From contig OZ024742.1 in assembly GCA_964016885.1 (NCBI GenBank), positions 353,710,001 through 353,774,000 of the forward strand: a stretch of DNA of 64,000 nt. Reading direction: 5' to 3'. The position numbers and the translations under genes were made by a program. Shown piece after piece: positions 12,237 to 57,712 of the stretch. Numbering within the stretch: the stretch's first letter is position 1; every line of letters begins with the position of its first letter. The stretch is from Eledone cirrhosa. Its lineage: Eukaryota. The notes under the pieces were generated by a model. That model did not search any database. It was given only the letters and a program-made list of their open reading frames with translations, and was not told where the DNA came from.

Positions 12237-12294
<58 letters not shown>

Positions 12295-12421
12295 AAAGTT
12301 TTATTTAAAATTGTTGGGTTACAACGAGTAAATATTTTATAACTGATATAAAGCACTCAACAAGTTTTGGAGTAGATATACGATATTAAACAAATGGAAA
12401 CTATATTTATAAAACCATATT

Positions 12422-12487
12422 TATTTCATTATATATATTTCAGGGATACCATATTAAAAATATGGCATGCCTTCTTCAGATAAAATA
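12422..12487 (-). ncRNA. Minimal type I hammerhead ribozyme in 3' pLTR of PLE A
   Basis: TATTTTAT-CTGAAGA-[AGGCATGCCATATT-TTT-AATATGGTATCCCT]-GAAA-TATATA-TA-ATGAAATA; 8-bp stem I; palindromic ATAT loop III. Confidence 0.8.
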
Positions 12488-14070
12488 CAATGTATAAGCA
12501 GTTTTATAAATAAATTTGACGTACCATAAATATTGACCAACTTCCATTTGAGAAGTTGGTTTGGTAGTGAAATGTTTATAAATATTTAGTGTTAAGCACA
12601 GTTAGAAAGAAAGACGGAGAAAAAGAAGAAATGTATGTAAAGAAAAACAAAGAGAGATAGAGAGAGATATGGGAGAGAGAAATAGTGAGGAGGTGAAAAA
12701 TGAGAGGCAGCTGAGGCAACAGATGAATAATAATAATTCATCATACAAATTGAGAGATTTAGGAGGGAGGGAGTACTGTAATTATTTATTTATTTATTTA
12801 TTTAGTTATAGTGTTAAGGAGACGGAGAGAAATAAAAGATAAATAAAGAGAAAACAGAGAGGCAGAGAGAGATAGAGGTGGGGGGAAAAAGAGGTAGACC
12901 GAATAATAATTATACATGGGGAGGTGAGAGAAAAATAGGAGAGAGGTAAGAGAGAAAACAATAGAGGTAAAGCAAAAGTAGCCGATACTTAAATTTCATC
13001 ATGTATAGAGGGAGGAGAAGAAAGAGCTATATCCAGAGAGAAGGATGACAGATTTACAACTTTACGTTATGTCTTATCAATTTGAATTATCAATTCATAT
13101 GAATTGGGTATTATAATGTAAATATCAATATTCATGAATGAGACATAGATATATAATGTGTGAAAAATAATGACCATATGTTTAGTTTAAAAATTCTTAG
13201 GTCGATATAACAAAAACTGAGATAAAACTTCAAAAAATACGGAAATACATAAGTATATATGTACTTTCCGGAAAAAGAAAGAAAGAGAAAAATAGAAGTC
13301 ATCTCAAGTTCTAGTTGACACTATAGACATGCACGTGAACTTACGTGATCAGCTCTGTAATTTCTCATTTCACATGAAAACATTTTCCCTTGCGTTATAA
13401 AAGATTTTACTATATATATATATATACATACATAGATATACATAAAACATATATATTAATATTAATATTCCTGCCCTCACATACATGATTATCGTTCATG
13501 TATAGAATATTATGCATATCTGTAACATATCCAGAACCATATCCACACATACATATATATATATATGCGTGCGCAACATGGACAGATAGAATAAACAGAT
13601 AAAATAGAATATAGTCTGTAATCATTCCATATTCATATTAATACATACGGCCTCTGCACAGAGACAACAGATATTAATATATCAAAACGCTAAGAATATT
13701 TTCATCACTCCCTAGAGTATCTAGGGCCGTAAAAAACACAGTATGCCCCGCCATATCAACCACAGAAATCTACCCTTCCAATTTATCTGACAATATATTT
13801 GCCAAGTTCATTAGAAGCAATCAGAATCAAAAAGCAAAGAAAAAACCAAAATTATTCAACAAAACTTATTTAGCAGAAATCATTTAAAAGATTTAGGAGA
13901 CCCTGTTGTTCTACAGATGCTCTTATATTTAGTATAGAAGTTTATCTAGCGTAACATTTATTCAATAGATTGGGAGCATCAACATTTTAGGGTAGTTTAA
14001 TTAAATCATTAGTATATGAAGAAGGTTTAAGAAAGATTTATCGTCAGGTTTCATAATTAATTAAATATCT

Positions 14071-16265
14071 TAACTAAATATACTACATTTTAAATTTATA
14101 TTTATATTTAAACGTTGAGTTCAATCTATGTCTGCAGCAACGAATAAATTGCTCCTTAAATTAAGGGAATTTTTAGATTTTAATATAAAGAATATCTCCT
14201 CCACGCAGAGGTCACATGTCTCAGATGAGGAATTAAAAGGAATCCCTCTTGAGACTATATTCCAAAACATCGAATATCCAACGTTATCATGTTTAAGTTG
14301 CCAGAGTAAGCCTGATAGTGAAGTTGAAGATTTTTTGTTTGGATCTGTGAAAGAATCCTTATGATTATTATAGCGAAGTTTAAATTCTGTCGAGGTGGAA
14401 CCAACATAGTTAAAAGAATTTAAGTCAGTTTTAACATTACAATTGTATATTATATTTTTAACTAAGCAATTGTTATTTAACGGACATTTAGATTTATTTC
14501 TACAGTTACAGTTGTTTAATTGAATATTGTTTAGGCTATTATCGGTATTTTGGCTAGGTTTTAGATTCCTATTATTTATTCTGTTAATACTTTGTGCTAA
14601 ATTTTTGGTGGACGAGTAAGTTAATTTTATAGTATGTCTATTAAAAATTGAGTGATATTTATGTGTTCTAGGGAAGAGTTTGTCAAGAGCATTAAAAAAC
14701 AGTTTAGCAACGTGCGTTTTAATATTTAGTGAGAAGGGGGGGGGGAAATCATATTATATTTCTAGTTCTATTTCTTTTCTGGCTTTTGGAATTATTGTAA
14801 TGCTTTCTATTATAGTTGTTAAAGTTGTTACCGTAATTAAAATTGTTGTTATTTTGGTTAGTTTGCCTATTATTATCGATATACATAATTGTATCACTAT
14901 ATCCTGCTCTAGCTAACGCTTCATTGTAATACTTCGCTTTTTCGTCGAAAATATTTTTATTATATGAAATTCTTGAGATACGTTCTTGAACAGAGTTGGG
15001 GTGATTAGAGTTAAAACTGACATAATTCAAGTTTTCATTTAGTTTGTGAAATGGATAGTGAAGACATGTGTTGAGATTTAGTGTTACATCCAGAAAATTG
15101 ACTATTCTATGGTTATTCTCTATTTCTATTTTTAGATTAAGGTAATTAAAAAAATTGTATAATTTGTTTTCTTTTTCTATTTAGTTCAGAGTTAATATTT
15201 TCAATAATTAAAAGCATGTCATCACGATATAATCCACGATATATGCAGCGAATTAATTATAAATAGGCCCACAAGGTCCGTTACCTGAGCTGAGTCAGAT
15301 GATCCCATAGTAATGTCGAAATTATTATCTCTATCTGCCCTAGTCCATAGTTGGTTATTAAATTATATCAATGTTTTCCTTGCCGATAATATAATGTACA
15401 TTGCATTGCTAGTTAGGTCTGTATGTTTGAATGCGTAATTTAGTGCCTTATTTAGTAGATTAGGGGTAATAGATGAATAGTAGTTAGCAATATCTAGTTG
15501 AATAAATTTATTATTATTGTTATATTTAATTTCTTTAAAGCACTCAATAACCTCACCAGTTCCCTTCCACAAGTTTAAGTTAGGTAAACCATGTAAGTTT
15601 TTAATTTGCTGTATCACCCTGTCTAGGATGTTTTTGCTAAGTTTACCCAGGTCAGATTTCGATGGTGCAATCAATCTGACTGGCAAATCATTTTCAAAAT
15701 TTCTTTTGTGATCTTTCATATTGATCTTGGGTTTCCTAGGCAAGAAGGGTTGTGTTTTGTTCTCAATTTCCAACTCATGCATTATACAAGATGCCTCAAC
15801 ATTCATTTTCTCCAGTTCGTCCTTATCTGCTACTTTGTACTTTTTCCTTAGTTCTTTCAGTATAAGGCCATTATACATGTCTTTTTGCACTTCATAAAGG
15901 TTGTTGGTTTTGTCCGATTTCACCAAGATCTTCTCTGTTCTCTCCAAGCTTTCAATATTATCCTTAATGATTCTTAGATATTCCTGGCCTTTGAAGTTTC
16001 TCTTGAATTTAACTCCTTGTATGATAGAAATTATATCGTTTTCAAAATCCATTAAAAGTTTGTTGGGGGGTGGATTTTTTTTAGATTTGAAAACTTTATC
16101 TAAGTCTGAGACATTTTCATTTAGATTAGATTTATCAAAGTGGAAGGCACGCCACATGATTCTTCTTATAAAAGAGTCTGATTTTTCTATTAATTGTTTA
16201 ATAAAGTCTTTGTTCTTAGGTAGAGGTATGTCTTTTAGAGAAGAAGATATCTTAAAGAATTCCAT
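14071..16265 (-). pseudogene. PLE RT-GIY-YIG polyprotein, disrupted
   Basis: SDKTNNLY; KDHK..RLIAPSKSDLG; FIQLDIANYYSSI; FDITMGSSDSAQVTDLVGL; GLYRDD (about 15215-15235); linker CNCRNKSKCPLNNNC; NIIY..YVGST..RYNNH; CDLC; terminal CRH. Contains a stop at 15363 and frameshifts. Confidence 0.9.
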
Positions 16266-16767
16266 TTTTTTCAGTTATAATATAAAGCGCTCAACAGTAT
16301 TGGAGCAAAATATATGCAAAAGTTTTATTTAAAATTGTTAGGTTACAACGAGTAAATATTTTATAACTGATATAAAGCACTCAACAACTCTAACTCTCTG
16401 TTTTCTCTTTATTTATGTTTTATTTCTCTCCGTCTCCTTAACACTATAACTAAATAAATAAATAAATAAATAATTACAGTACTCCCTCCCTCCCAAATCT
16501 CTCAATTTGTATGATGAATTATTATTATTCATCTGTTGCCTCAGCTGCCTCTCATTTTTCACATCCTCACTATTTCTCTCTCCCATATCTCTCTCTATCT
16601 CTCTTTGTTTTACTTTACATACATTTCTTCCTTTTCTCCGTCTTTCTTTCTAACTGTGCTTAACACTAAATATTTATAAACATTTCACTACCAAACCAAC
16701 TTCTCAAATGGAAGTTGATCAATATTTATGGTACGTCAAATGTATTTATAAAACTGCTTATATATTG

Positions 16768-16833
16768 TATTTTATCTGAAGAAGGCATGCCATATTTTTA
16801 ATATGGTATCCCTGAAATATGTATAATGAAATA
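16768..16833 (+). ncRNA. Hammerhead ribozyme in inverted pLTR of PLE A
   Basis: Same fold as 12422-12487 with loop III ATGT instead of ATAT. Confidence 0.75.
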
Positions 16834-16965
16834 AATATGGTTTTATAAATATAGTTTCCATTTGTTTAATATCGTATATATATATATATATATATTTATA
16901 TTTCTATATGTAAGTATGTATGTATACGTACATACATATATGTATACAGACGTACAGTAGCATGC

Positions 16966-16996
<31 letters not shown>

Positions 16997-17152
16997 TACA
17001 TAGAGGTACACATACATATATGCACGTATCAGTTTAGCGGACGCTTATTATAACGCCGCTTTGTTCGTTTGTAAACAAACTGAACAGCCTGCATTTATGC
17101 CGTACGGTGTTAAGGCAACCACGTCACCTTTTTGTCCAACACTGACACAGGA

Positions 17153-17195
17153 ACGATGTACTAGTTTCAAGCGTGTTAGCTATCATCAGCACCGT
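17153..17195 (-). ncRNA. Minimal type I hammerhead ribozyme
   Basis: ACGGTG-CTGATGA-TAGCTAACACGCTT-GAAA-CTAG-TA-CATCGT; 6-bp stem I, AGC/GCT stem II, palindromic CTAG stem III, GUA triplet. Confidence 0.85.
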
Positions 17196-17431
17196 ATACC
17201 CTTCTGCCAGATAGTTGAACGTTCGAAAGTATATACTTTCCTTATGAAAATTAACGGCTGAGCAGCCTAATTTGCATATCGAGTGAGTTAAGTCGGTCAG
17301 GCATACCGAAAACGATAAGTTGAAATAAAATGAAAACGAAATTTCATTTCTCACTCTTAGTACGGCGCTTACTTAAATGTAAGTATATATGTATACTTAC
17401 ATACATATATGTATACAGACGCACAGTAGCA

Positions 17432-17503
<72 letters not shown>

Positions 17504-17624
17504 TACATACAGGTACACATACATAAATGCAGGCTGTTCAGTTTGTTTACAAACGAACATAGCGGCGTTATAATAAGCGTCCGCTAAACTGATACGTGCA
17601 TATATGTATGTGTACCTGTATGTA

Positions 17625-17714
<90 letters not shown>

Positions 17715-17951
17715 CATGCTACTGTACGTCTGTATACATATATGTATGTACGTATACACACATACTTACATTTAAGTAAGTGCCGTACTAAGAGTGAGAA
17801 ATGAAATTTCGTTTTCATTTTATTTCAACTTATCGTTTTCGGTATGCCCGACCGACTTAACTCACTCGATATGCAAATTAGGCTGCTCAGCCGTCATTTT
17901 CAAAAGGAAAGTATATACTTTCGAACGTTCAACTATCTGGCAGAAGGGTAT

Positions 17952-17994
17952 ACGGTGTTGATGATAGCTAACAAGCTTGAAACTAGTACATCGT
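17952..17994 (+). ncRNA. Minimal hammerhead ribozyme copy with C3U change
   Basis: ACGGTG-TTGATGA-TAGCTAACAAGCTT-GAAA-CTAG-TA-CATCGT. Confidence 0.65.
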
Positions 17995-18150
17995 TCCTGT
18001 GTCAGTGTTGAACAAAAAGGGGACGTGGTTGCCTTAACACCGTACGGCATAAATTCAGGCTGTTCAGTTTGTTTACAAACGAACAAAGCGGCGTTATAAT
18101 AAGCGTCCGCTAAACTGATACGTACATATATGTATGTGTACCTGTATGTA

Positions 18151-18212
<62 letters not shown>

Positions 18213-19489
18213 TGCTACTGTACGTCTGTATACATATATGTATGTACGTATACATACATACTTACATTTAAGTAAGTGCCGTACTAAGAGTGAGAAATGA
18301 AATTTCGTTTTCATTTTATATCAACTTATATTTTTATATATATATATGTATACATATATAGTAATAATAAGAAATGTGAAGATTAAACAAACATCGGTTC
18401 TTTGTTTAAACTTTAATCTGTCATTTTAATATATATATAAATATATATATATAGGAACAAGTATGACACCGACAGCACAGCCCAAGCCGTTTCGACGGCT
18501 AATTCCGGACTAAATAATCATTTCTAGCCTAGTAAATAAATAGCTGAACTTCTCAGGGGTAATTCCTCATAGGGGAAGATAGAAATTGTCAAAAGGGTTG
18601 GACAACAATTTGTTGTAAAGACAGATGATTCTAACATGGCATTTAGTGGGAGGTAGGGGTAGCTGAACCTGCCGGTAGAAGAAAGAGGGAGTGGGGGAAA
18701 CCCAATCAAGCGTTGAAATTGAAATGTATACAGCAGATTCTAAGGATAGTGTATAGAAGGTCGAAAATAATGTACTCGAAAAGGGGAGGGGAGGTTGAAA
18801 GAATAGGTAAATCGAAAGGGAGTACACAAAAAAGGCATTATAAAAATGAGGAAATAAATATATGAAAAACAATTGCTGGTTACTAGTCCATCCCCACAAT
18901 CACCAAATCTCTCATTGGTATTGCTAAGCTATAGAAAAGTTTAATAGGTGGAGAAAAATACTAAATACGAGATTGTAGTGAAATAATTTTATGAAGCCGG
19001 CTTTACAGGGGGTCTAACACGACTGCTATAATTAGTAGTAATCAGCCAATACTATCTTACAATGACAGGGTAATAAGTTGAGAACAAACGATCTAAAATA
19101 CTACTACAAAAATACTAATACGAAATATTAATTCAGAATACTAATACTTAAATACCACTAATAAATTTAGAAATCACGGACATGGAGCAGCAACCAGAAA
19201 GAAAACAATTTACTGGGGTCTAACACATCTGCTATAAAAAGCGTAATCGGCCAATTCTATCTTAAAATTAAGGGGGTGGTGGTACTGAGGGTACAGTGGA
19301 CCGATGGGCTGCATCGGGTTGGGCGAAAAGTTTGGAAAAAAAGACAAGGAAGGAGATCTAGGGTGGAAGAACTAGAAAGGGATGGGTGAAGAAGGAAATA
19401 TAGCGGAAAAGATCAAAAAGTTACGTCTACCTTTGTAAGCAGGTTACCCCTTACAAAATCGGCAAGTGGGGTGATTCAGCCATTGTCAT

Positions 19490-21615
19490 CCCCACACCCC
19501 TGGCTCATTATAGGATTTGAGGGTGAGGTAAGTCCTACGCAATCTGTGTTTGCAGGCAGTTACCAGTTCGTCTTTCTTGTGTAGGAGTTGGTCCTTCGAA
19601 AACAGCATTGTAATGTTTCCTCCGAGCATAAGTTACACGGACGGCGTCCTCCCGTGTAACAGTTAGCTCTGGACAGTAAGCTCCAAGTAAGATTGTAGAT
19701 TATATTATCTTTGGGGTCCCAGAGGTGGCCCGAAAGTGTAGTGGCATGACGCCGGATCGGGTTTCGGAAAGTATGTCTGTGTATGTAGAGCCGGATCTTG
19801 TAGATAAAGGAAGTAAATCCTATATAAGCTTTGTTGGAGGTGTCCGTCCTCACATTGCACTGGTAGATCACATTACGATCTCGGCATCTGTAGTTGAGGG
19901 GGCAAATGTAACTACCAGGACAGTTACACCTCCTGTTAGACTCTCCACTGCTGTCTAGGTTATTTCTTCCATAGGATTTGAGTTTGTTGTTGTTAGAGGA
20001 AACGATGTTTTGTGCGAAGTTAGGTGTGGTGCTGTAGGAGAGTTTGATGGTGATTTTGTTGATTATGTTGTGGTAGTGGTGTTGTAGTGGGAAGTTTGTT
20101 TTTGATGAGCCTAAAGAAGATTTTCCCGATAGGTGTTGACACCTCGGCATTGTGGGGAGGATTGAACCACGTTACGTTGCGTGAGCGGCGGTGTCGCCTG
20201 CTGGGTCCGCTTATGGAAGCTGGATAATAGGATATTTCATCCCTGAAGCCACTCGGCTTGGGAGCCTGGTCGTCGAATATCTGTTCATTAGCGGACAAAC
20301 GAGATATACCGAAGGAGATGTTTTTAACCAGTTTATTGGTGATGTTCTAGGATGGTTCGACCGGCGGTGGATGTAATACAGGTTGTCGTTTGGTTTCCTG
20401 TATGGGTAGTACAGATCATTATCGAGGTTAAGGGTAATGTCCAGGATGTGTACACGGGTTAGGGACGTTTGTAGGGTTATTTTAAATCCCCAGTCGCGGA
20501 AGAAGCTGATTAATTGTTTATGTACACGGTCTGTACTACTGGTGTTCTACCCTTTGAGGGTAAGGAGCCCATCATCACGGTACCATCAACCGCCGAATGC
20601 AGGAAACATTTCGGTGAGTTTAAATAGTACGAATAATCCTATAAGATCTGTGACCTCAGCCGAATCCGTCGCGCCCATACTGACGTCGAAGGGGGAATCA
20701 GGAGCTCTCTTTATCCATTTGGAGTTGTCGAAAAGTAGAACTGTCTTCATGGCGTGGAGGATGATATTTATTTACTGGTCAGTGATGGGCGTGAGTGTTT
20801 CGGCAAAGTGCAAGGCGGCCGTAAGGAGCTGTAAAGTAATAGATGCATAGTAACTCTCTATGTCAAACTGGATGAATGTTGTGTCTCGTTTGTCCTCCAT
20901 ATTGCTGAACCATGAGATTATTTCCTGGGTGTTGACTTATAGGTAACATCTCGCGTTTTGCTTAACTTTTGGTATAACGCGGTCTAGGATTGTTTACTGA
21001 TTCTCTCTATATCGGACGTAGTTGGGTTTATAAGCCTGATTGATGGTTTACTGTCGAAGTCGGATGTGTGGTCCTTAAGTGTGAAGTAAGGAGTTCGTGG
21101 GTCTAGGGGTTCAGTGCGGTCGGCGACCCCGAGGCTGGAGGTAATTTGTTGTCCATCTAGATTTATGTATTCGATACTTAAATGGTTAGCCTTTTTATAG
21201 GTGGAGTTTAGGCTGCTCCTGATCAGTGTGTGGTATCTGTCGGGGTTGACGAAGTAGAGATTTCCAGTTGTGTCCGAGTGCACCATGATGTCGTTTGTAT
21301 TTTCATACTCCGTTAATTTGCTACGGAGATTTTGAGGAACCTGTTGTGTCTGGGTTTGAATTTAAAGCTCTTGACCAGTTGGAAATGTTCATTCTCGAAG
21401 GGTGAGAGCATAGCGTTTGGAGGGGGAGATTTGTAAGTATTAAATCCGAATCTCTCCTTGGTATCGAAGTCCTGATTGTCGCAATATCTGTCGTAGAAAA
21501 AAGTTCTCCATCTCAGTCTTTTCGCAAAGAGGTCGATTTTTTGCGTGAGCATCCGAAGGTAGAGTTTTCTCGGTGGGACTGGGATGTTCTTGGTGGAGAA
21601 GTCGATGTTGTGTTT
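19490..21615 (-). pseudogene. PLE RT-GIY-YIG polyprotein, disrupted
   Basis: SDTTGNLY; LKDH..IRLINPTTSDI; FIQFDIESYY; WYRDDG (about 20569-20586); VTWFNPP; CNCPGSYICPLNYRC; NVIY..AYIGFTS; CNLC. Multiple frameshifts. Confidence 0.9.
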
Positions 21616-22023
21616 TCGCCTGGTGCGGGTGAAAAAACTTGAGCTTAGCGGAAAAGTCTGGATAAGGCGTGGTAGTGTCGGAAAGTGCTCTACTACGGAA
21701 ATAGGAGCTAGATAACGAAGGAAATGTGGTAAGGAACCAGATGGACCATAACGCACCAAAGTACTAAATACATAGGGTAGTAGAGTGGGTAATAGGAACA
21801 AATATGACCGCGACGGCAGAGTTCAAGCCGTTTCGACGGCTAATTCTGGACTAAATAAGTATTTTTAGCCTAGTAAATAAATAGCCGAACTTCTCCCTCT
21901 TTGTTCTACCAGCAAGTTCAGCTACACCTACCTCCCACTAAATGCCATGATAGAATCATCTGTCTTTACAACAAATGTTTGACCAATCCTTTTGACAATT
22001 ACTATCTTCCCATATAAGGAATT

Positions 22024-22119
22024 ACCCCCTGAGAAATTCGGCTATTTATTTACTAGGCTAAACATTCTTATTTAGTCCAGAATTAGCCGTCGAAACGGCT
22101 TGAGCTCTGCCGTCGGGGT
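22024..22119 (+). ncRNA. Hammerhead-like ribozyme with variant core (CUGAGAA)
   Basis: ACCCC-CTGAGAA-..CGGCTA..TAGCCGTC-GAAA-CGGC(TTGAGCTCT)GCCG-TC-GGGGT. All three stems and a GUC triplet are present; position 8 is A. A decayed copy lies at 18466-18560 (minus). Confidence 0.6.
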
Positions 22120-23752
22120 CATACTTGTTCATATTACCCACTCTACTACCCTAAGTATTGAGTACTTTGGTGCGTTATGGTCCATCTGGTTCCTTACCAC
22201 ATTTCCGTCGTTATATATATATGTATATATATATATATATATATCTTTGTGTGTATGTGTGTGTGTAATTTCCTTAAGCCAGCAAAGACCACCTCGTCAG
22301 CCATTTAGAAATTAATAATTAGATTATACTCCATCCACACACTCTTTATTTTCGTTTTTCTCATCATTTCTCTCTTTCTCTCTTTGTATCTCTCTTTCTA
22401 TTTCTTGTTTCCTGTATTTTACCGCTTCTGTCCTTACCATTTTTATTCTCACATTTATTATATATCATATTGCAAGACAGTTCGCTGTAGACATACTTTC
22501 TGCTTTACTTTAACAGGACTATCATCCATAATATTTAATAATATTTCACTCAATTCCTTATGGCGAAGTTATTGCAAACGCCACTTTGTTATCATTGCTT
22601 CTAATGGTTTTAGTGTGAAACACAATGCTTTGTATATGCATCCATTATCATACTTATGTGAACTTATTGGGTCCTCGTTGTTTTGTGTCATCCATGGTGC
22701 ATTGGAGAACATAAACATGCTGCCTTTAAATGTACGCCAATGTTGTGATCTCTAGAGGACAGCTGAGACAACATTCCTGTTGAAAATCCATATGTTCAGT
22801 TAATTCTTGAAAATATATAAAAAATATTAATGTCTCAAATATCTCCATGAATGTAGAAATGTAGAAAAATGTAATGATAAGAAGGATTATAACATTCTTC
22901 CAACAGCGTTTCAAATAGTTAGTTTATTATCTGTCATAGTCACGAGAAATATTGGCTTTGTTCTCCGGTCTCGCTGGTCTTGCCGGCGTTACTCTTGCCG
23001 CATCCTCATCAACAGGTTTCCCTAAAACACAATGGATACCACTGAGTTCGAGTTACGTGACGCAACCTTTGAGACTAGAAACCTGTTCGTACTTAGCCCA
23101 GTAGACATTCCTTCTCTTTTCCATTCTACTGTCGTCAAATATGGCTATATCATATTGGATAGCATCCAATGAAACATGGCCTGTTTTTGTTTGTACAATT
23201 TTATGAACTAATAAACATTGCGGTTTTAAAATTGTCAGCTAACGTACAGCAATTTTATGATATTTCATATATCTCTCAGTTGATGCACACACACACACCC
23301 GCAGACACGCACAAACACACGTACCCCCCCCCCCCCACATATATATATATAGAGAGATAGATAGGTAGATAGGTAGATATACATATTCGTTTTATTAAGA
23401 ATAAATATCGGGTTTTGTTTCTCTGGAGATCCGCTTGGGTATCACGGGGTCATGTTGACCCTCTGATAAACAGGCGAAACTCTGGAGTAACAAGTTTGCC
23501 CTTCCTCAAAATGTGATGATCACAATGAGAAATAAAGATCTTATCAGTAATATTCTATTTAATTTTACGATTTTGGTGTAATGATTTTACTATGAATTAA
23601 CATGGAATATGTAATTATTTAGCTATTAATAATAAAAATTTAAAAACGATCGTAATAGTTGACACTGAATATTTACATCGGTATTGTGAACGTTACTTCT
23701 ACGGAAACACTTAAGTCTACACATAATAACAATGTTTGATATGGATGCTAAA

Positions 23753-32786: not shown

Positions 32787-35700
32787 TTATATTGACAGGA
32801 TCTTCCTTAGTATATGGGCAGTTCCCATTAGTACTATCTTTTGTATTTCTCCTATACGCGGGTTTCCTGGGATTTGCGATAAGTAGTCGTTAGACCCCTT
32901 AGGTATCATTCCCAGAGCGCCTACAACCACTGGTATTGTTTTAGTTCTCAATTTCCACATTTTTCCAATTTCTATCTCCAGGTCCTTATACTTGCTCAAT
33001 TTTTCAAATGTTTTTATAGATACATTCTTGTCTATTGGAACAGACATATCAATTAGCAGGCATACCCTCCTTTGAAAGTCCTTCAATATTATATCAGGTC
33101 TATTTGCATCTATTTTTCGGTCTGTTTGGATTCTAAAGTTCCACAAGATTGAGATGTGATCTTTTTCAAGTATGGGAGGTGGTTGATGCTCCCACCAATT
33201 CTTTTGATGGGGCAGGTCAAAATGCTTACACATTATCCAATGTATGTATTGTGCAGCTCTGTCATGCCTGTTTAGGTATTCGGTTGGAGCTATAGGACTG
33301 CACATTGAAATTATATGGTCAATGGTCTCTGGTTGTTTTTTGCATACACGGCATAGTGGGCTGCACCCATTTTTTATTATGTTGGCTTGGTAATTTTTTG
33401 TTGGCAGACACTGATCTTGTGCGGATATAATCAGTCCTTCAGTCTCCGATTTCAGTCCAGAGGATGCCAACCACTGATGGGTTAAAGTTTTGTCAACATC
33501 AGGATTGTTAGCTCGCTCTGGGTATTTTCCATACAGAGGCTTTTCTTGCCATTTCTTAGCCAGTTTCTGTAGCAGTTCTTTCTTTGCAGTTACTTTTACC
33601 TGCTTTGCTTTTTCTGTGTTTTCCATTTCAGCAGTAAATGGGACTTCTGAAATTTGTAGTCCATTACTGTATCTTTGTGCATCTTTTGTAATGGAATATG
33701 ATCTTTTGGTGCTTTCGTGTTTCAAAACGAGTTTGATCATCCAATCATGTGATTCCCTTAGATATGTGGATAATCCAATTGTTGCAGTTTTCAACGCAAT
33801 GTCTAACTGGATTAACCCACGTCCTCCTTCTTTCCTAGGGAGATATATTCTATCTATGTCTGCCTTAGGGTGATGCATTCTGTGCATGGTTAAGAATTTT
33901 CGGATTTTTGTATCGAGCCTATGGATCTCTGTGCTTGACCAGTTGATGACATTGTAACTGTAGGTTACTACTGGTATGGCAAGCGTGTTTATGGCATCGA
34001 TCCTATTCCTTGCATTCAATTCCGTTCTTAAGATTGCTCTGACTCTGCGGTAACATTCCTTCCTTATCCTTTCCCTCATTGTCGAGTGCTTGATTCCGTC
34101 TCCTTCACAAACACCTAGATATTTGTAAGTTTGTTCTTGATCAAGCTCTCTTATCACGTTCCCCCGATCAAGATTAATGTCTGAACTCTTCAGCAGCTTT
34201 CCTCTGGTGAACGTTGCTTTGGCGCATTTATCCAGTCCAAACTCCATTTTAATGTCATCACTGAACTGCTTCACAGTGGATAATAGCCCTTGCAATTGTT
34301 CATCATTTTTTGCAAATAGTTTCAGGTCATCCATGTAGAACAGGTGATTAATGGTTTTGTCATAGACTCTATATCCATGTTTTGTTTCATTGAGCATTTT
34401 ACTTAATGGTATAAGTGCGATGCAGAATAAAAGCGGTGATAAAGAGTCACCCTGAAAAATTCCACAATTAATGTTAACTTCTCCAGCTTCCAGTGATTTT
34501 GTTTCACTATTCAAAAGGAGTGTCGTTCTCCATGTCCTCATACTGAATGACAAAAACCTCCTGACAACGGGGGATATTTTGAAAATCTCTAAACATTTTT
34601 CAATCCAACTGTGTGGCAAACTATCAAATGCTTTTTTATAATCTATCCAAGCAATCGATAGATTTTTGTGTCTATTATGACAATCTTCCAGTATCATTTT
34701 GTTAACCAGAAGCTGATCCTTACAGCCATATGAGCCTCGTTTACACCCTTTCTGCTCAATGGGAAATAGGTCATTTGTTATCAGGTGGTCATATGTGTAT
34801 TCAGTTAGGACTGATGTTAAAATTTTATACATTGTGGTCAAGCAGGTTATCGGTCTGTAATTTTTGGGATTGTTTGTCTCATCATTCTTCGGTAGCAGGA
34901 ATGTAATGCCGTTAACTAGCCATGATGGTATCTTTTCTGGCTCCTTAACTATTTCATTGTAAAGTTGGGCTAACAGCTCATGAGACTCTGTGAAGGCATT
35001 TATCCAAAAGTTTTGTATTTTGTCTTTTCCTGGGGATTTCCATTTGCTGGTTTTTCTTAGAGCCAAGCGCAGCTGTTCAACTGTTATATTTTCCCATGTT
35101 TGTTCTTCAAGGTGAGCTGTTTCTTTCATTTGTCTGTCTATCCATGGGGCATGTATGTTATGAACTTTTTCTTCGGCCCAGATCTTTTCCCAGAATTCTT
35201 GTACTTCCTCCTTGGGTGGTATTGATTTAGCAGTTATTGTTGACTTACCAATTTTTCTGTAGAAGTTTCTTTGGTTGTTTTTGAACATATTATTGTCCTT
35301 ATAGAATCTAGATCGTTTTTCAAAGCGCCTTATACGAGCAGCTTTGGCCGACACTTTTTGCTTGATTGTTTCTATCAGCATGTCTATGTCACATGTTGAT
35401 CTTATACTGTACTTTTTTTTTAATTTTCTAAGTTTAGTTTGTTTAACATGTTCACCTACTTTATAGTTTGTTAAAATGTCTATGTCAGATCGGAGAAGGT
35501 TTATTTGGCGATTGATGTTATCTTGCCAAGTAGATTTCTTGTGGGAATTCTTTTGTTTTTTCATCTTCACTCCACATAAGTGAGTGGTGACTTTAGCCGA
35601 TGCATAATAGAGATGATTTAAGTCAGTAATGTTTATTTTGTTTGTGATGATAATGTTTTTGAGAATTATGTTAGTCTTGTGTATTATCTTTTGGTTCTGT

Positions 35701-36437
35701 TTGGAGTTCTGGATCTTAGGGAGGGTGTCTCGTTCCCCCATGTCAGATTCTTTCATTTTCATCCATTCGATCATAATTTCATCCTTCAAGTTGGCAAGTT
35801 CATTCTCATTCATTTCTTTATCATTTACGATCTCATTATTTTCATTTGGAGTTTCATCCTGAGCATGCACTCCCTCCACTTTTTCGCTCCTTTCTTTAAT
35901 TTGTTCTGTTGCCAGTGATTCCGCCCCAACTCTGGGATTCGAAGTGTTACAGTTTACCTCGTTTTCACTGACACATGCTTCATTTTCCCTTCGCTGACTT
36001 TGTGCTACTAGCTTGATCTGATCAATTTCTATATCAGTTAGTAACTTTTTTCTTACAATATTTCTTCGTATATTGGCTAGTTTGTTACTGTCAATATAGC
36101 CTCTGTTTTCGGGATGTTTCTTTTTCCAGTTGATATATGTTTGCTCTGTATTCGATGTATTTGATGGGTAGTACATGGCAGTGTAGAAAGCCTCAAGGAC
36201 TTCTTTATTATCTTCCCTTGACCATTTTTCTCTCTTTTTCTTTGGATTTCTTGGTGGTGAGCATGGAGGGCCAACAGTAGGAGTATTCCGGTTATGGGAG
36301 GTCTCCAGCTCCGAAGTGATGGGAAGGTTTGAACCATTAGCTGATTTTTCGACCCCAGTCTGGTTCCTCTCTGAGGGACGCGGCCCTTTTTTACCCGGGT
36401 GACGGCCGATCCGGTATGAGATTTCATCATTAGACAT
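32787..36437 (-). CDS. 1216-aa reverse transcriptase / CCHC knuckle / restriction-like endonuclease protein
   Basis: N-terminal REKWSREDN (Myb-like); KSPGKD; NYRPITCL; WIDYKKAFDS; GIFQGDSLSPLLF; YMDD; YKYLG; CRVCKKQPETIDHIISMC; RPDIILKD..LIDMSVP..EKLSKY. Confidence 0.93.
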   Translation of the reverse strand: MSNDEISYRIGRHPGKKGPRPSERNQTGVEKSANGSNLPITSELETSHNRNTPTVGPPCSPPRNPKKKREKWSREDNKEVLEAFYTAMYYPSNTSNTEQTYINWKKKHPENRGYIDSNKLANIRRNIVRKKLLTDIEIDQIKLVAQSQRRENEACVSENEVNCNTSNPRVGAESLATEQIKERSEKVEGVHAQDETPNENNEIVNDKEMNENELANLKDEIMIEWMKMKESDMGERDTLPKIQNSKQNQKIIHKTNIILKNIIITNKINITDLNHLYYASAKVTTHLCGVKMKKQKNSHKKSTWQDNINRQINLLRSDIDILTNYKVGEHVKQTKLRKLKKKYSIRSTCDIDMLIETIKQKVSAKAARIRRFEKRSRFYKDNNMFKNNQRNFYRKIGKSTITAKSIPPKEEVQEFWEKIWAEEKVHNIHAPWIDRQMKETAHLEEQTWENITVEQLRLALRKTSKWKSPGKDKIQNFWINAFTESHELLAQLYNEIVKEPEKIPSWLVNGITFLLPKNDETNNPKNYRPITCLTTMYKILTSVLTEYTYDHLITNDLFPIEQKGCKRGSYGCKDQLLVNKMILEDCHNRHKNLSIAWIDYKKAFDSLPHSWIEKCLEIFKISPVVRRFLSFSMRTWRTTLLLNSETKSLEAGEVNINCGIFQGDSLSPLLFCIALIPLSKMLNETKHGYRVYDKTINHLFYMDDLKLFAKNDEQLQGLLSTVKQFSDDIKMEFGLDKCAKATFTRGKLLKSSDINLDRGNVIRELDQEQTYKYLGVCEGDGIKHSTMRERIRKECYRRVRAILRTELNARNRIDAINTLAIPVVTYSYNVINWSSTEIHRLDTKIRKFLTMHRMHHPKADIDRIYLPRKEGGRGLIQLDIALKTATIGLSTYLRESHDWMIKLVLKHESTKRSYSITKDAQRYSNGLQISEVPFTAEMENTEKAKQVKVTAKKELLQKLAKKWQEKPLYGKYPERANNPDVDKTLTHQWLASSGLKSETEGLIISAQDQCLPTKNYQANIIKNGCSPLCRVCKKQPETIDHIISMCSPIAPTEYLNRHDRAAQYIHWIMCKHFDLPHQKNWWEHQPPPILEKDHISILWNFRIQTDRKIDANRPDIILKDFQRRVCLLIDMSVPIDKNVSIKTFEKLSKYKDLEIEIGKMWKLRTKTIPVVVGALGMIPKGSNDYLSQIPGNPRIGEIQKIVLMGTAHILRKILSI

Positions 36438-55246: not shown

Positions 55247-55305
55247 TTAGGTAACAGCCGTACGAAGAGTGAGAAATGAAATTTCGTTTCATTTTTTTCC
55301 GTTTA
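55247..55305 (+). mobile_element. Terminal remnant of family C
   Basis: GCCGTACGAAGAGTGAGAAATGAAATTTCGTTTCATTTT matches 18278-18318; followed by (TA)n. Confidence 0.7.
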
Positions 55306-55326
55306 TATATATATATATATATATAG

Positions 55327-55518
55327 GTACGTTATTCCGGTTTGAATCTGAGGTAACAACAGTAAGTAAGGTACTCAATACATAGCTACATAGCAGAGTA
55401 TAACAGTTTTAATATAGATGAGATTCTACAGGACTATAACTGTTCATTCTTTAGAAATCATCAGATGATTTCTAAAGAATGAAACAGTTTTAGTCCTGTA
55501 GAATATCATCTATATTAA

Positions 55519-55522
<4 letters not shown>
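55327..55522 (-). mobile_element. Palindromic mini-PLE insertion (family P)
   Basis: Reverse-orientation relative of 57518-57712; inverted arms centred near 55463; TA-flanked. Confidence 0.85.
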
Positions 55523-55599
<77 letters not shown>

Positions 55600-55652
55600 T
55601 TAATAAAATAATGAATAAACAAAGAAACAGTTCCTTATATTAAAAAAAATTC

Positions 55653-55790
55653 ATCATTTTACGATCGTTTCTAGGATATATATGTGTTAGAGTTGGTATG
55701 CATATTCTATAGATCTATGTACAATATTTATACACACTATCAGAGGGAATATACATACCTACACATATATATGCTGTCTTCAGAAATAAT
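55653..55790 (-). ncRNA. Type I hammerhead ribozyme with very long stem II
   Basis: ATTATTT-CTGAAGA-[105 nt including ATATATATGTGT/ACACATATATAT and GGTATGTATATT/AATATGCATACC]-GAAA-CGATCG-TA-AAATGAT. Confidence 0.75.
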
Positions 55791-56419
55791 ATTTGTTTAT
55801 TGAAAAAAACAAAGATTCAATACAATAGGTCTGTTCGGGAACAGGTTTTGAATTGACCAATAGAGTGATAGTGAGGGTCAGGATAGTAATATAGTAGTAG
55901 AAGAACCTTAAATTATGGGTAGAGGAAGGGAGATTTCAGTTTTGGATGGAAAAGAATATTATGAATGAAGGATTATTTTAGGGAAGAAATAGGTCATATG
56001 CTGACCTCAGAAATAATTGTATTTGTTCATTGAATAAAACCAACAAAGATCTAATATATTCTGTCTGTTTGGTAAGAGGTTTAGAATTAACCAATAGAAA
56101 GTTAATAATTGGCCAAAGGGTAAAATAGTAGTAATTGAAGCTTATTTTAGGGGTGAAAATAGGTCAGGTGGTCAATAAAAGGTATACAAGCAGTTGCTGT
56201 TATAAAATAGTAATGCCAATACAAATATCTAAGGTGACTAAAGTTTTAAGATAAGAATGTTAGTGAAAAAATACATCTATGAAAAGAATATAAATTAATT
56301 TATTTGATGGGTATATTTATATTGATAAAATTATACTAATACATATAGATATGATAACTAAGAGTTAGATGCAGTTGAAAAGTGCTGTTAAAGATGAGGG
56401 GAAATTAAAATAATATAAA

Positions 56420-56461
<42 letters not shown>

Positions 56462-56503
56462 TTATACATATATATATATATACATATATATACACATACA
56501 CAC

Positions 56504-56553
<50 letters not shown>

Positions 56554-56644
56554 TTACATATATACATATACATACATATATATACACATACACACACACA
56601 CATACACACATAAATATATATATATATATATATGCATATATATA

Positions 56645-56675
<31 letters not shown>

Positions 56676-56899
56676 AGATATATACATGCACATATACATA
56701 CATACACATATATATACACACACATATACACTTATATATACATATAATTATTGGGGGGGGGGATTAAATTTATTAGTGAGAAATAGTAAATATATATAGT
56801 TTTCAAGGAACATAGAGTCATAACCTGAAGTTAAAGCATTATATATGTTTACTTAATGGTATCAGTTTTAGGAAATGATATTTGTAAGAAGGAAAGCAA

Positions 56900-57122
56900 A
56901 ATTATGGAGTTCATCAGTAGTAGAATATTAATTATAGGTTAACTAAATTAAAAATAGTTTATATATTAATTTCTAAAGTGTATATTAATTAGGTTTATAA
57001 TGTTTAAAGCAGAATTATGTAGTTCATCAGTAGTAGAATATTAATTATAGGTTAACTAAATTAAAAATAATTTATAAATTAATTTCTAAAGTGTATATTA
57101 ATTAGGTTTATAATATTTAAAG
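56900..57122. repeat. 113-bp tandem duplication
   Basis: TTCATCAGTAG at 56910 and 57023; near-identical units. Confidence 0.9.
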
Positions 57123-57472
57123 GTTTTTCTCAGTTTATGATTACACGATATTATTAATTCCTGTCGCTTATTTAATAGGATATCCTTAGATTTCATTATT
57201 TCAAAAAGTTCTTCTACATAGATCTATAGAATATGCATACCAACTCTAACACATATATATCCTAGAAACGATGGTAAAATGATGAATTTTTTTTAATATA
57301 AGGTACTGTTTCTTTGTTAATTCATTATTTTATTAATTTATCTTGACTCTGTTTTCCGTTTATTTTTCACCGAAAGTAGTTTTTGAATGCATCTTCTCTT
57401 TTCATGATATCCGGATTACATTGAGTCCTTCATACGGATTGGACACTACCGTAAACTTTTGGTAGATTTATC

Positions 57473-57517
<45 letters not shown>

Positions 57518-57521
<4 letters not shown>

Positions 57522-57711
57522 TTAATATAGATGAGATTCTACAGGACTAGAACTGTTTCATTCATTAGAAATCATCAGGAATCTCTGATGATTTCTAATG
57601 AATGAAACAGTTCTAGTCCTGTAGAATCTCATCTATATTAAAACTGTTATACTCTGCTATGTATTGAGTACCTTACTTACTGTGGTTACCTCCGATTCAA
57701 CCCGGAATAAC

Positions 57712-57712
<1 letters not shown>
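57518..57712 (+). mobile_element. Palindromic mini-PLE insertion (family P)
   Basis: Perfect 61-bp inverted arms 57518-57578 and 57585-57645 plus a 67-bp tail; TA-flanked. Confidence 0.9.
57533..57585 (-). ncRNA. Type I hammerhead ribozyme
   Basis: GAGATTC-CTGATGA-TTTCTAATGAAT-GAAA-CAG(TTCTAGTC)CTG-TA-GAATCTC; perfect 7-bp stem I; GUA triplet. Confidence 0.85.

What the first reader, a model, noticed from the sequence alone, without database searches (positions are those of the whole stretch)
16895..18335. Second hammerhead array whose unit contains its own (TA)n target
Seen: units of about 470-500 bp, roughly 1.3 on one strand and 1.6 on the other, diverging from a junction at 17524/17525. 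Each has a 43-nt minimal hammerhead (GAAA-CTAG-TA) and an internal (TA)n of variable length. A terminal remnant recurs at 55247-55305, so the family is dispersed. Inference: a second retrozyme-like element that has captured the microsatellite into which it inserts and could seed new target sites.
Basis: partly seen in the sequence, partly recalled or inferred. Interest (0 to 1): 0.72.

Follow-up and report, generated by a model that had tools for sequence, protein, structure and literature searches.

The report
Retrozyme with built-in TA landing pad
This is one copy of a non-coding jumping repeat, with over ten thousand hammerhead-ribozyme motifs in this genome, that sits in TA repeats as two back-to-back arms and is likely moved by a Penelope-type enzyme; the TA run inside each unit likely grew in place rather than being captured, and other jumping genes sometimes land in it.

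Summary
Real, and a known kind. 16908-18329 is one head-to-head insertion of a young non-coding family: a 436-nt unit plus an internal (TA)n, with 10,672 exact hammerhead matches genome-wide. It has the Penelope-like footprint: (TA)n targets, 5'-truncated inverted arms and two fixed 3' ends 59 nt apart. 44 of 45 scorable two-armed copies pair one short end with one long end, and both arms share subfamily variants. I infer that both cut DNA strands prime on the element's RNA. The internal (TA)n sits at the same place in every unit junction seen, and 8 of 264 tracts hold later insertions, so seeding happens, but it is minor. Capture is not supported: a 60%-identical relative with no TA run (7,819 matches) targets TA with the same geometry, and the run lengthens only in this lineage. 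Corrections: this copy has only two hammerheads, on opposite strands, one with a core mutation, so it cannot release a circle itself; the 55247 remnant belongs to a sister subfamily. Cleavage, circles and the helper element are untested. This scan noted the same two-end rule before on other DNA.

The parts
16875..16907 (.). Left target (TA)n (pure run 16875-16895) abutting the short end
16908..16965 (-). Terminal piece of the minus arm (unit positions 1-58), ending at the short 3' end (site A)
16966..16998 (-). Internal (TA)n spacer 1 (33 bp, pure run 23)
16999..17434 (-). Full 436-nt non-coding unit, minus arm
17153..17195 (-). Type I minimal hammerhead; core intact, one helix II mismatch; predicted GUA cut between 17159 and 17158
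17435..17505 (-). Internal (TA)n spacer 2 (71 bp, pure run 61)
17506..17531 (-). 5'-truncated inner start of the minus arm (unit 411-436)
17522..17531 (.). Head-to-head junction, 10-nt imperfect microhomology
17522..17622 (+). 5'-truncated inner start of the plus arm (unit 336-436)
17623..17713 (+). Internal (TA)n spacer 3 (91 bp, pure run 77)
17714..18148 (+). Full unit, plus arm
17952..17994 (+). Hammerhead with core change C3 to U at 17958 (likely impaired)
18149..18209 (+). Internal (TA)n spacer 4 (61 bp, pure run 49)
18210..18329 (+). Terminal piece of the plus arm (unit 1-120), including the 59-nt tail 18268-18326 and the long 3' end (site B)
18330..18347 (.). Right target (TA)n
55247..55305 (+). 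Long-end remnant of the sister subfamily between TA tracts
12292..16874 (-). Context: decayed Hydra-type Penelope-like element with its own hammerhead; short end shares the left TA tract
18454..22211 (-). Context: second decayed Hydra-type element (family X), short end left, long end right; the family found nested in internal TA tracts elsewhere

Best explanation
This is a head-to-head insertion of a non-coding, hammerhead-bearing tandem repeat (a non-LTR retrozyme) that is likely copied by a Penelope-like retroelement enzyme working in trans. Inferred steps: tandem loci are transcribed; the template is an uncut multimer or a circle, not a cut linear monomer; the enzyme nicks both strands of a (TA)n; each new 3' end starts reverse transcription at one of two fixed internal sites 59 nt apart (A on one side, B on the other); the two cDNAs run for different lengths and are joined through a few bases of microhomology. 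The internal (TA)n is shown to be a fixed part of the unit. It most likely lengthened by slippage inside an older purine-pyrimidine hairpin, is not needed for targeting, and passively serves as a landing site for later TA-seeking elements. This particular copy is a dead end for circle formation.
For: Of 153 outer 3' ends, 133 are A or B abutting TA. 44 of 45 scorable two-armed copies pair A with B (p=1.3e-12 against 50:50); by my reading the same holds in 10 of 11 sister copies and 15 of 15 copies of relative V. Arms agree at 74 of 74 diagnostic variants in 20 informative of 53 two-armed elements, against 14% when shuffled. 8 of 44 cannot arise by one cDNA folding back on itself (one doubtful). 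31 of 62 junctions overlap by 1-5 nt. No arm starts at the ribozyme cut site (0 of 152) and 122 of 152 read through it. A purified Penelope-like enzyme cleaves and extends both strands, starting at two internal RNA sites that bound the tail (PMC11167929). Hammerhead helices I and II covary across four related families. TA run medians: V 4, old 6, sister 13, this family 30 nt; V has 7,819 hammerhead matches and the same TA targeting. Hydra-type, TA-targeting coding elements flank this copy.
Against: No coding parent with a homologous terminal repeat was found, so the helper is inferred from the footprint only. Five arm chimeras with coding families split 3 complementary to 2 not, and later deletions explain them equally well. 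One B/B copy in this family and one in the sister family break the rule. In vitro, the two strands showed no difference in start site, so strict pairing is not predicted by that work. Helix II starts with a U-U mismatch instead of the conserved G-C pair, so cleavage may be weak. Long arrays also grow locally as DNA (period-6 higher-order repeat), so arrays alone do not prove a circle. The direction of TA change rests on one distant outgroup and a weakly supported tree. Loci came from best hits and the start of one contig, not from a random sample.
Confidence: 0.78

Rival explanations
1. One reading: the element captured its (TA)n target, and the captured tract matters for targeting or spread.
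For: The tract is in every unit junction, the hairpin around it looks like decayed microsatellite, and later insertions use it. 11 of 153 arm ends stop in the tract.
Against: Relative V lacks the run (5-6 nt at most) yet targets TA, has the same two ends and 7,819 matches. The tract is perfectly complementary to the target but 133 of 153 ends use A or B instead. An ancient capture of the whole degenerate hairpin cannot be excluded.
Confidence: 0.12
2. The inverted arm comes from self-priming (fold-back) of one nucleic-acid strand, as proposed for rotifer Penelope elements (PMC3846280).
For: 36 of 44 two-armed copies are geometrically compatible with fold-back; arms share variants; a few junctions are palindromic. 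In this copy one rare variant is shared by both arms near the junction.
Against: 8 of 44 are incompatible with a single fold-back, and fold-back gives no reason for the second arm to stop exactly at the other fixed site. Outside one old array, cross-arm sharing of rare variants is at chance level (2 seen, about 1.7 expected).
Confidence: 0.15
3. The units are only truncated terminal repeats of a coding Penelope-like element and local satellite growth, with no independent RNA cycle.
For: Local duplication is evident in long arrays; truncated ends of coding families make similar short head-to-head stubs.
Against: None of the family loci examined showed the unit continuing into a cognate reading frame; the end of the unit runs straight into its own start; multi-unit arms occur on both sides of fresh junctions with array-wide variants.
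Confidence: 0.07
4. Assembly artefact (chimeric fold-back reads or collapsed repeats).
For: Inverted repeats with long TA runs are hard to assemble; no read-level check was obtained.
Against: The arms differ at 15 of 435 aligned sites, end at different conserved sites, and the same form with distinct junctions recurs in 62 of 92 elements, always diverging. TA lengths themselves may be imprecise.
Confidence: 0.03

Closest known systems
Metazoan non-LTR retrozymes (PMC7229834, passages; bioRxiv 10.64898/2026.07.22.740005, parts 1-3 of 5)
   Same: Non-coding tandem units with a type I hammerhead, GC 38%, thousands of dispersed copies, monomers to long arrays, strongly self-paired RNA (z -4.9), co-occurring with coding Penelope-like elements.
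   Different: Unit about 480 nt (above the 170-400 nt RNAs and 150-450 bp repeats quoted there, within the 51-972 bp range of the preprint); minimal rather than canonical hammerhead with no G10.1-C11.1 pair; an unstable internal (TA)n; head-to-head arms and two fixed ends, which the passages I read do not describe for retrozymes; expression and circles untested.
Insertions of endonuclease-bearing Penelope-like elements, especially the (TA)n-targeting Hydra clade (PMC8557442, passages and section 11; PMC3846280, passages; PMC11167929, parts 1-3 of 4)
   Same: Partial tandems, inverted 5'-truncated copy, tail on one end only, (TA)n targets, internal start sites unrelated to the ribozyme cut.
   Different: No reading frame; tail 59 nt instead of 30-40; no homology found to the terminal repeats of the coding families seen here; the one-short-one-long pairing is counted here as near strict, whereas those papers call the tail optional or often on one end.
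Minimal hammerheads of Penelope-like elements (PMC4209133, parts 1-2 of 4)
   Same: Short helix I, tiny palindromic helix III that can only close as a dimer, pairs of motifs 100-700 bp apart on opposite strands.
   Different: Helix II is 4 bp with a U-U mismatch at its base, not 7-8 bp with the conserved G-C pair.
Non-autonomous Chlamys elements such as MRC1 (PMC8557442, passage)
   Same: Non-coding Penelope-like elements forming multicopy head-to-tail insertions.
   Different: Those resemble their coding partners at the 3' end and belong to a group lacking canonical hammerheads.

Membership tests
Non-LTR retrozyme | Type I hammerhead in each tandem unit | tested here: met
   Core positions conserved in about 180-190 pieces; helices covary across families; 41 of 92 elements have two or more same-strand motifs. 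This copy has one per strand.
Non-LTR retrozyme | Short non-coding unit, low GC, no LTR-type structure | tested here: met
   436 nt plus TA, GC 0.38; only frames running through the TA repeat.
Non-LTR retrozyme | Dispersed multicopy family | tested here: met
   10,672 exact core matches; hits on many contigs.
Non-LTR retrozyme | Self-cleavage of the RNA | not testable with these tools
   Needs a bench assay; U-U at the helix II base may lower activity.
Non-LTR retrozyme | Expressed linear and circular monomer RNA | not testable with these tools
   No RNA data could be laid; indirect only: no arm starts at the cut site.
Penelope-like element footprint | Inverted 5'-truncated copy next to a direct copy | tested here: met
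   62 of 92 elements.
Penelope-like element footprint | Tail at one end only (two start sites) | tested here: met
   44 of 45.
Penelope-like element footprint | (TA)n target preference | tested here: met
   Nearly all outer ends abut TA.
Autonomous Penelope-like element | Reading frame with RT and GIY-YIG endonuclease | tested here: not met
   None in the unit.
Non-autonomous derivative of a specific PLE family | Terminal repeat homologous to a coding partner | tested here: inconclusive
   No homology to the window's two coding elements or to 25 loci of a young Hydra-type family; other coding families were not surveyed.
Minimal PLE hammerhead | Conserved G10.1-C11.1 pair | tested here: not met
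   U-U in this and the sister family, C-A in the old one, G-C only in V.
Minimal PLE hammerhead | Palindromic helix III / loop 3 requiring a dimer | tested here: met
   2 bp with a 2-nt loop cannot be scored as a monomer; the 6-nt palindrome pairs with a second copy at -4.8 kcal/mol.

The most novel reading that the evidence does not exclude
A retrozyme lineage turned an internal hairpin into an expanding (TA)n and so plants about ten thousand new landing sites for TA-targeting Penelope-like elements, including its probable helper, while its copies record one enzyme dimer priming both cut strands on a single circular RNA, one strand at each of the two start sites.
Probability: 0.35. Interest if true: 0.62.

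Novelty: new member of a known kind. Interest (0 to 1): 0.4.

Why it matters
How Penelope-like elements make their inverted ends and one-sided tail is still open, and retrozyme mobilisation by these enzymes is suspected but unproven. A short, non-coding, high-copy template with two mapped start sites and a near-strict end pairing gives a simple substrate for testing both. The four related families are a natural experiment on the internal microsatellite: absent, short, medium and long, with the same targeting. The seeding effect is real but likely small: this window alone has about 20 TA arrays in 64 kb, so some ten thousand added tracts would be roughly 1% of the genome's supply (rough extrapolation from one window).

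Tried and rejected
Rfam scan: no hit. Sequencing runs: no RNA holder listed; this is no evidence on expression. No read-level check of the junction was obtained. Pfam and solved-structure searches of the flanking and related coding frames found nothing useful; the Hydra assignment rests on motifs read against PMC8557442 section 11. Search for a coding parent through the sister remnant, a chimeric partner end, relative V (empty) and other helix II variants: only non-coding relatives. Arm chimeras as proof of a helper: rejected as ambiguous (3 of 5 complementary). TA length as a marker of a shared template: rejected, lengths within arrays are no more alike than between arrays (p=0.21). Inherited unit-specific variants as a sign of a linear multimer template: not found (1 pair sharing two, 0.6 expected). 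One row of the alignment was in the wrong orientation and was redone. Paper searches listed no paper describing a retrozyme with an internal (TA)n used as a target, or twin priming for these elements; the library lacks most subscription journals and I read no supplements, which may hold such cases.

Full report
Observation. The window holds a minus arm at 16908-17531 and a plus arm at 17522-18329 of the same repeat, with 5'-truncated ends meeting in a 10-nt imperfect overlap and 3' ends facing outward into (TA)n. The unit is 436 nt plus a TA spacer (33, 71, 91 and 61 bp here). Each arm has one full unit and so one hammerhead, at 17153-17195 (-) and 17952-17994 (+); the right one has C3 changed to U. 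With one motif per strand, no transcript of this locus can be cut twice. The two full units differ at 15 sites. The remnant at 55247-55305 belongs to a sister subfamily about 85% identical to this one.

Family. The 32-nt ribozyme core occurs 10,672 times in the 3.0-Gb genome against 0 for the control. I annotated 92 elements from best hits and from the first listed places on one contig; elements whose best piece was under 93% identical were dropped as sister-family copies, except one long array. Three relatives exist: a sister family (8,080 matches), an older one (most listed rows of 1,673 matches) and family V, about 60% identical and collinear (7,819 matches). None showed a cognate reading frame. 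The unit core folds far better than shuffles (z -4.9, 60 shuffles).

Ribozyme. It is a type I minimal hammerhead: 5-bp helix I, CUGAUGA, 4-bp helix II, GAAA, and a 2-bp palindromic helix III that cannot close as a monomer but pairs with a second copy, as described for Penelope-like elements (PMC4209133, parts 1-2 of 4). Helices I and II change in compensating ways between the four families. The base of helix II is U-U here, not the conserved G-C, which only V has. Cleavage is untested.

Insertion footprint. Of 153 outer 3' ends, 59 stop at site A (unit position about 58) and 74 at site B (about 117), each against TA; 11 stop in the internal TA and 9 are irregular. 62 of 92 elements are two-armed. 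In 45 both ends are scorable, and 44 pair A with B, 1 is B/B (p=1.3e-12). By my reading of the tables the sister family gives 10 of 11 (30 loci) and V 15 of 15 (28 loci). This matches the published Penelope-like pattern of partial tandems, an inverted truncated copy and a tail on one end (PMC8557442, passages; PMC3846280, passages). A purified enzyme of this class cleaves and extends both DNA strands, starts at two internal RNA sites that bound the tail, and does not need ribozyme cleavage (PMC11167929, parts 1-3 of 4).

Mechanism tests. The arms of one insertion agree at 74 of 74 diagnostic variants (20 informative of 53; shuffled mean 14%, maximum 32%); a looser set gives 87 of 117 against 10%. 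So both arms come from the same template type. Simple fold-back needs one arm to lie within the other; 8 of 44 fail this, one doubtfully. 31 of 62 junctions overlap by 1-5 nt. No arm begins at the ribozyme cut (0 of 152) and 122 of 152 cross it, so the template is not a cut linear monomer. Circle versus uncut multimer stays open: shared variants are mostly array-wide (184 of 234 for variants seen in three or more other loci) and unit-specific variants are not inherited between loci, which fits a circle, but very long arrays show local duplication with a six-unit period. I infer paired priming: both cut strands start on the element's RNA, one at A and one at B, and the cDNAs are joined by microhomology.

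Helper. The copy sits between two decayed coding elements with Hydra-clade motifs (DKT, CxCx5C, no CCHH seen), each with one short and one long end. A young Hydra-type family shows the same end pairing in about 15 of 25 loci chosen for the long end. None shares sequence with the unit. Five chimeric joins with coding families are ambiguous. A TA-targeting Penelope-like helper is therefore inferred, not identified.

The internal (TA)n. It lies at the same place in all 214 unit junctions of the first set (211 with a pure run of at least 10 nt; spacer median 46 bp, range 11-253), so it is part of the unit. It is used as a target: 8 of 264 spacers hold clear foreign insertions (3 of Hydra-type family X, 2 each of two other families, 1 of a LINE-like element with a trinucleotide tail, that label being recalled), 3 more hold small oddities, and one may be a self-insertion; 107 kb of non-TA unit sequence held 1 insertion. 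Selection of loci on intact cores biases that contrast. It is not needed for targeting: V has no TA run above 6 nt at the homologous hairpin yet inserts in TA with the same two ends. Pure-run medians are 4 (V, n=39), 6 (old, n=8), 13 (sister, n=14) and 30 nt (this family, n=114); with V as outgroup this family branches apart from the two short-run families, with weak support and one mislabelled row. Growth in place by slippage is the simpler reading than capture, although the whole hairpin could be an ancient decayed microsatellite. That retrotransposons give birth to microsatellites is known (PMC3812793, listing and start of abstract only).

Comparison and verdict. It works like, and by the testable features is, a non-LTR retrozyme (PMC7229834, passages; bioRxiv 10.64898/2026.07.22.740005, parts 1-3 of 5), with cleavage and circles untested. 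The internal landing pad and the V control are the details specific to this finding; my paper searches listed no description of them, within a limited library and without supplements. Earlier notes of this scan report the same short/long rule and retrozyme reading in this genome and others; I had measured it before that look-up and they are not independent support. New member of a known kind; interest 0.40.

Noticed in passing
window 12292-22211: A pile-up of TA-targeting elements: Hydra-type element (12292-16874), this insertion, a short stub (about 18350-18430) and Hydra-type family X (18454-22211), separated only by TA runs.
   Followed up: partly
window 55321-57712: A different hammerhead-bearing family with back-to-back cores (about 55420-55520 and 57519-57640), also with U at both sides of the helix II base.
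   Followed up: no
L019:31-495; G000:C1:5738000-5753000: Family V: 465-nt TA-free relative with canonical G-C pair, 7,819 matches, arms of up to about 31 units.
   Followed up: yes
L165, L166 (G000:C4:212913000-212962300): Arrays of at least 18 and 12 full units; L165 has a six-unit higher-order period, so some insertions have become satellites.
   Followed up: partly
L063:2438-3850: A unit joined in the same sense to the endonuclease part of a young Hydra-type frame, with that family's long end inverted outside; template switch or later deletion.
   Followed up: partly
L162 (G000:C1:43086000-43093500): One minus-arm unit and one plus-arm unit share five rare variants, suggesting conversion between inverted copies.
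   Followed up: no
L006:2140-2300; L009:2430-2520: Another TA-targeting coding family whose two ends appear to lie about 59 nt apart, the same spacing as this family's; a helper candidate.
   Followed up: no
window 32787-36437 (-): Open 1,216-aa reverse-transcriptase frame of a LINE-like element (type recalled, not tested).
   Followed up: no
spacers of L061, L065, L095, L096: A subfamily with an interrupted internal TA keeps a near-constant 37-bp spacer, whereas pure tracts vary widely.
   Followed up: partly
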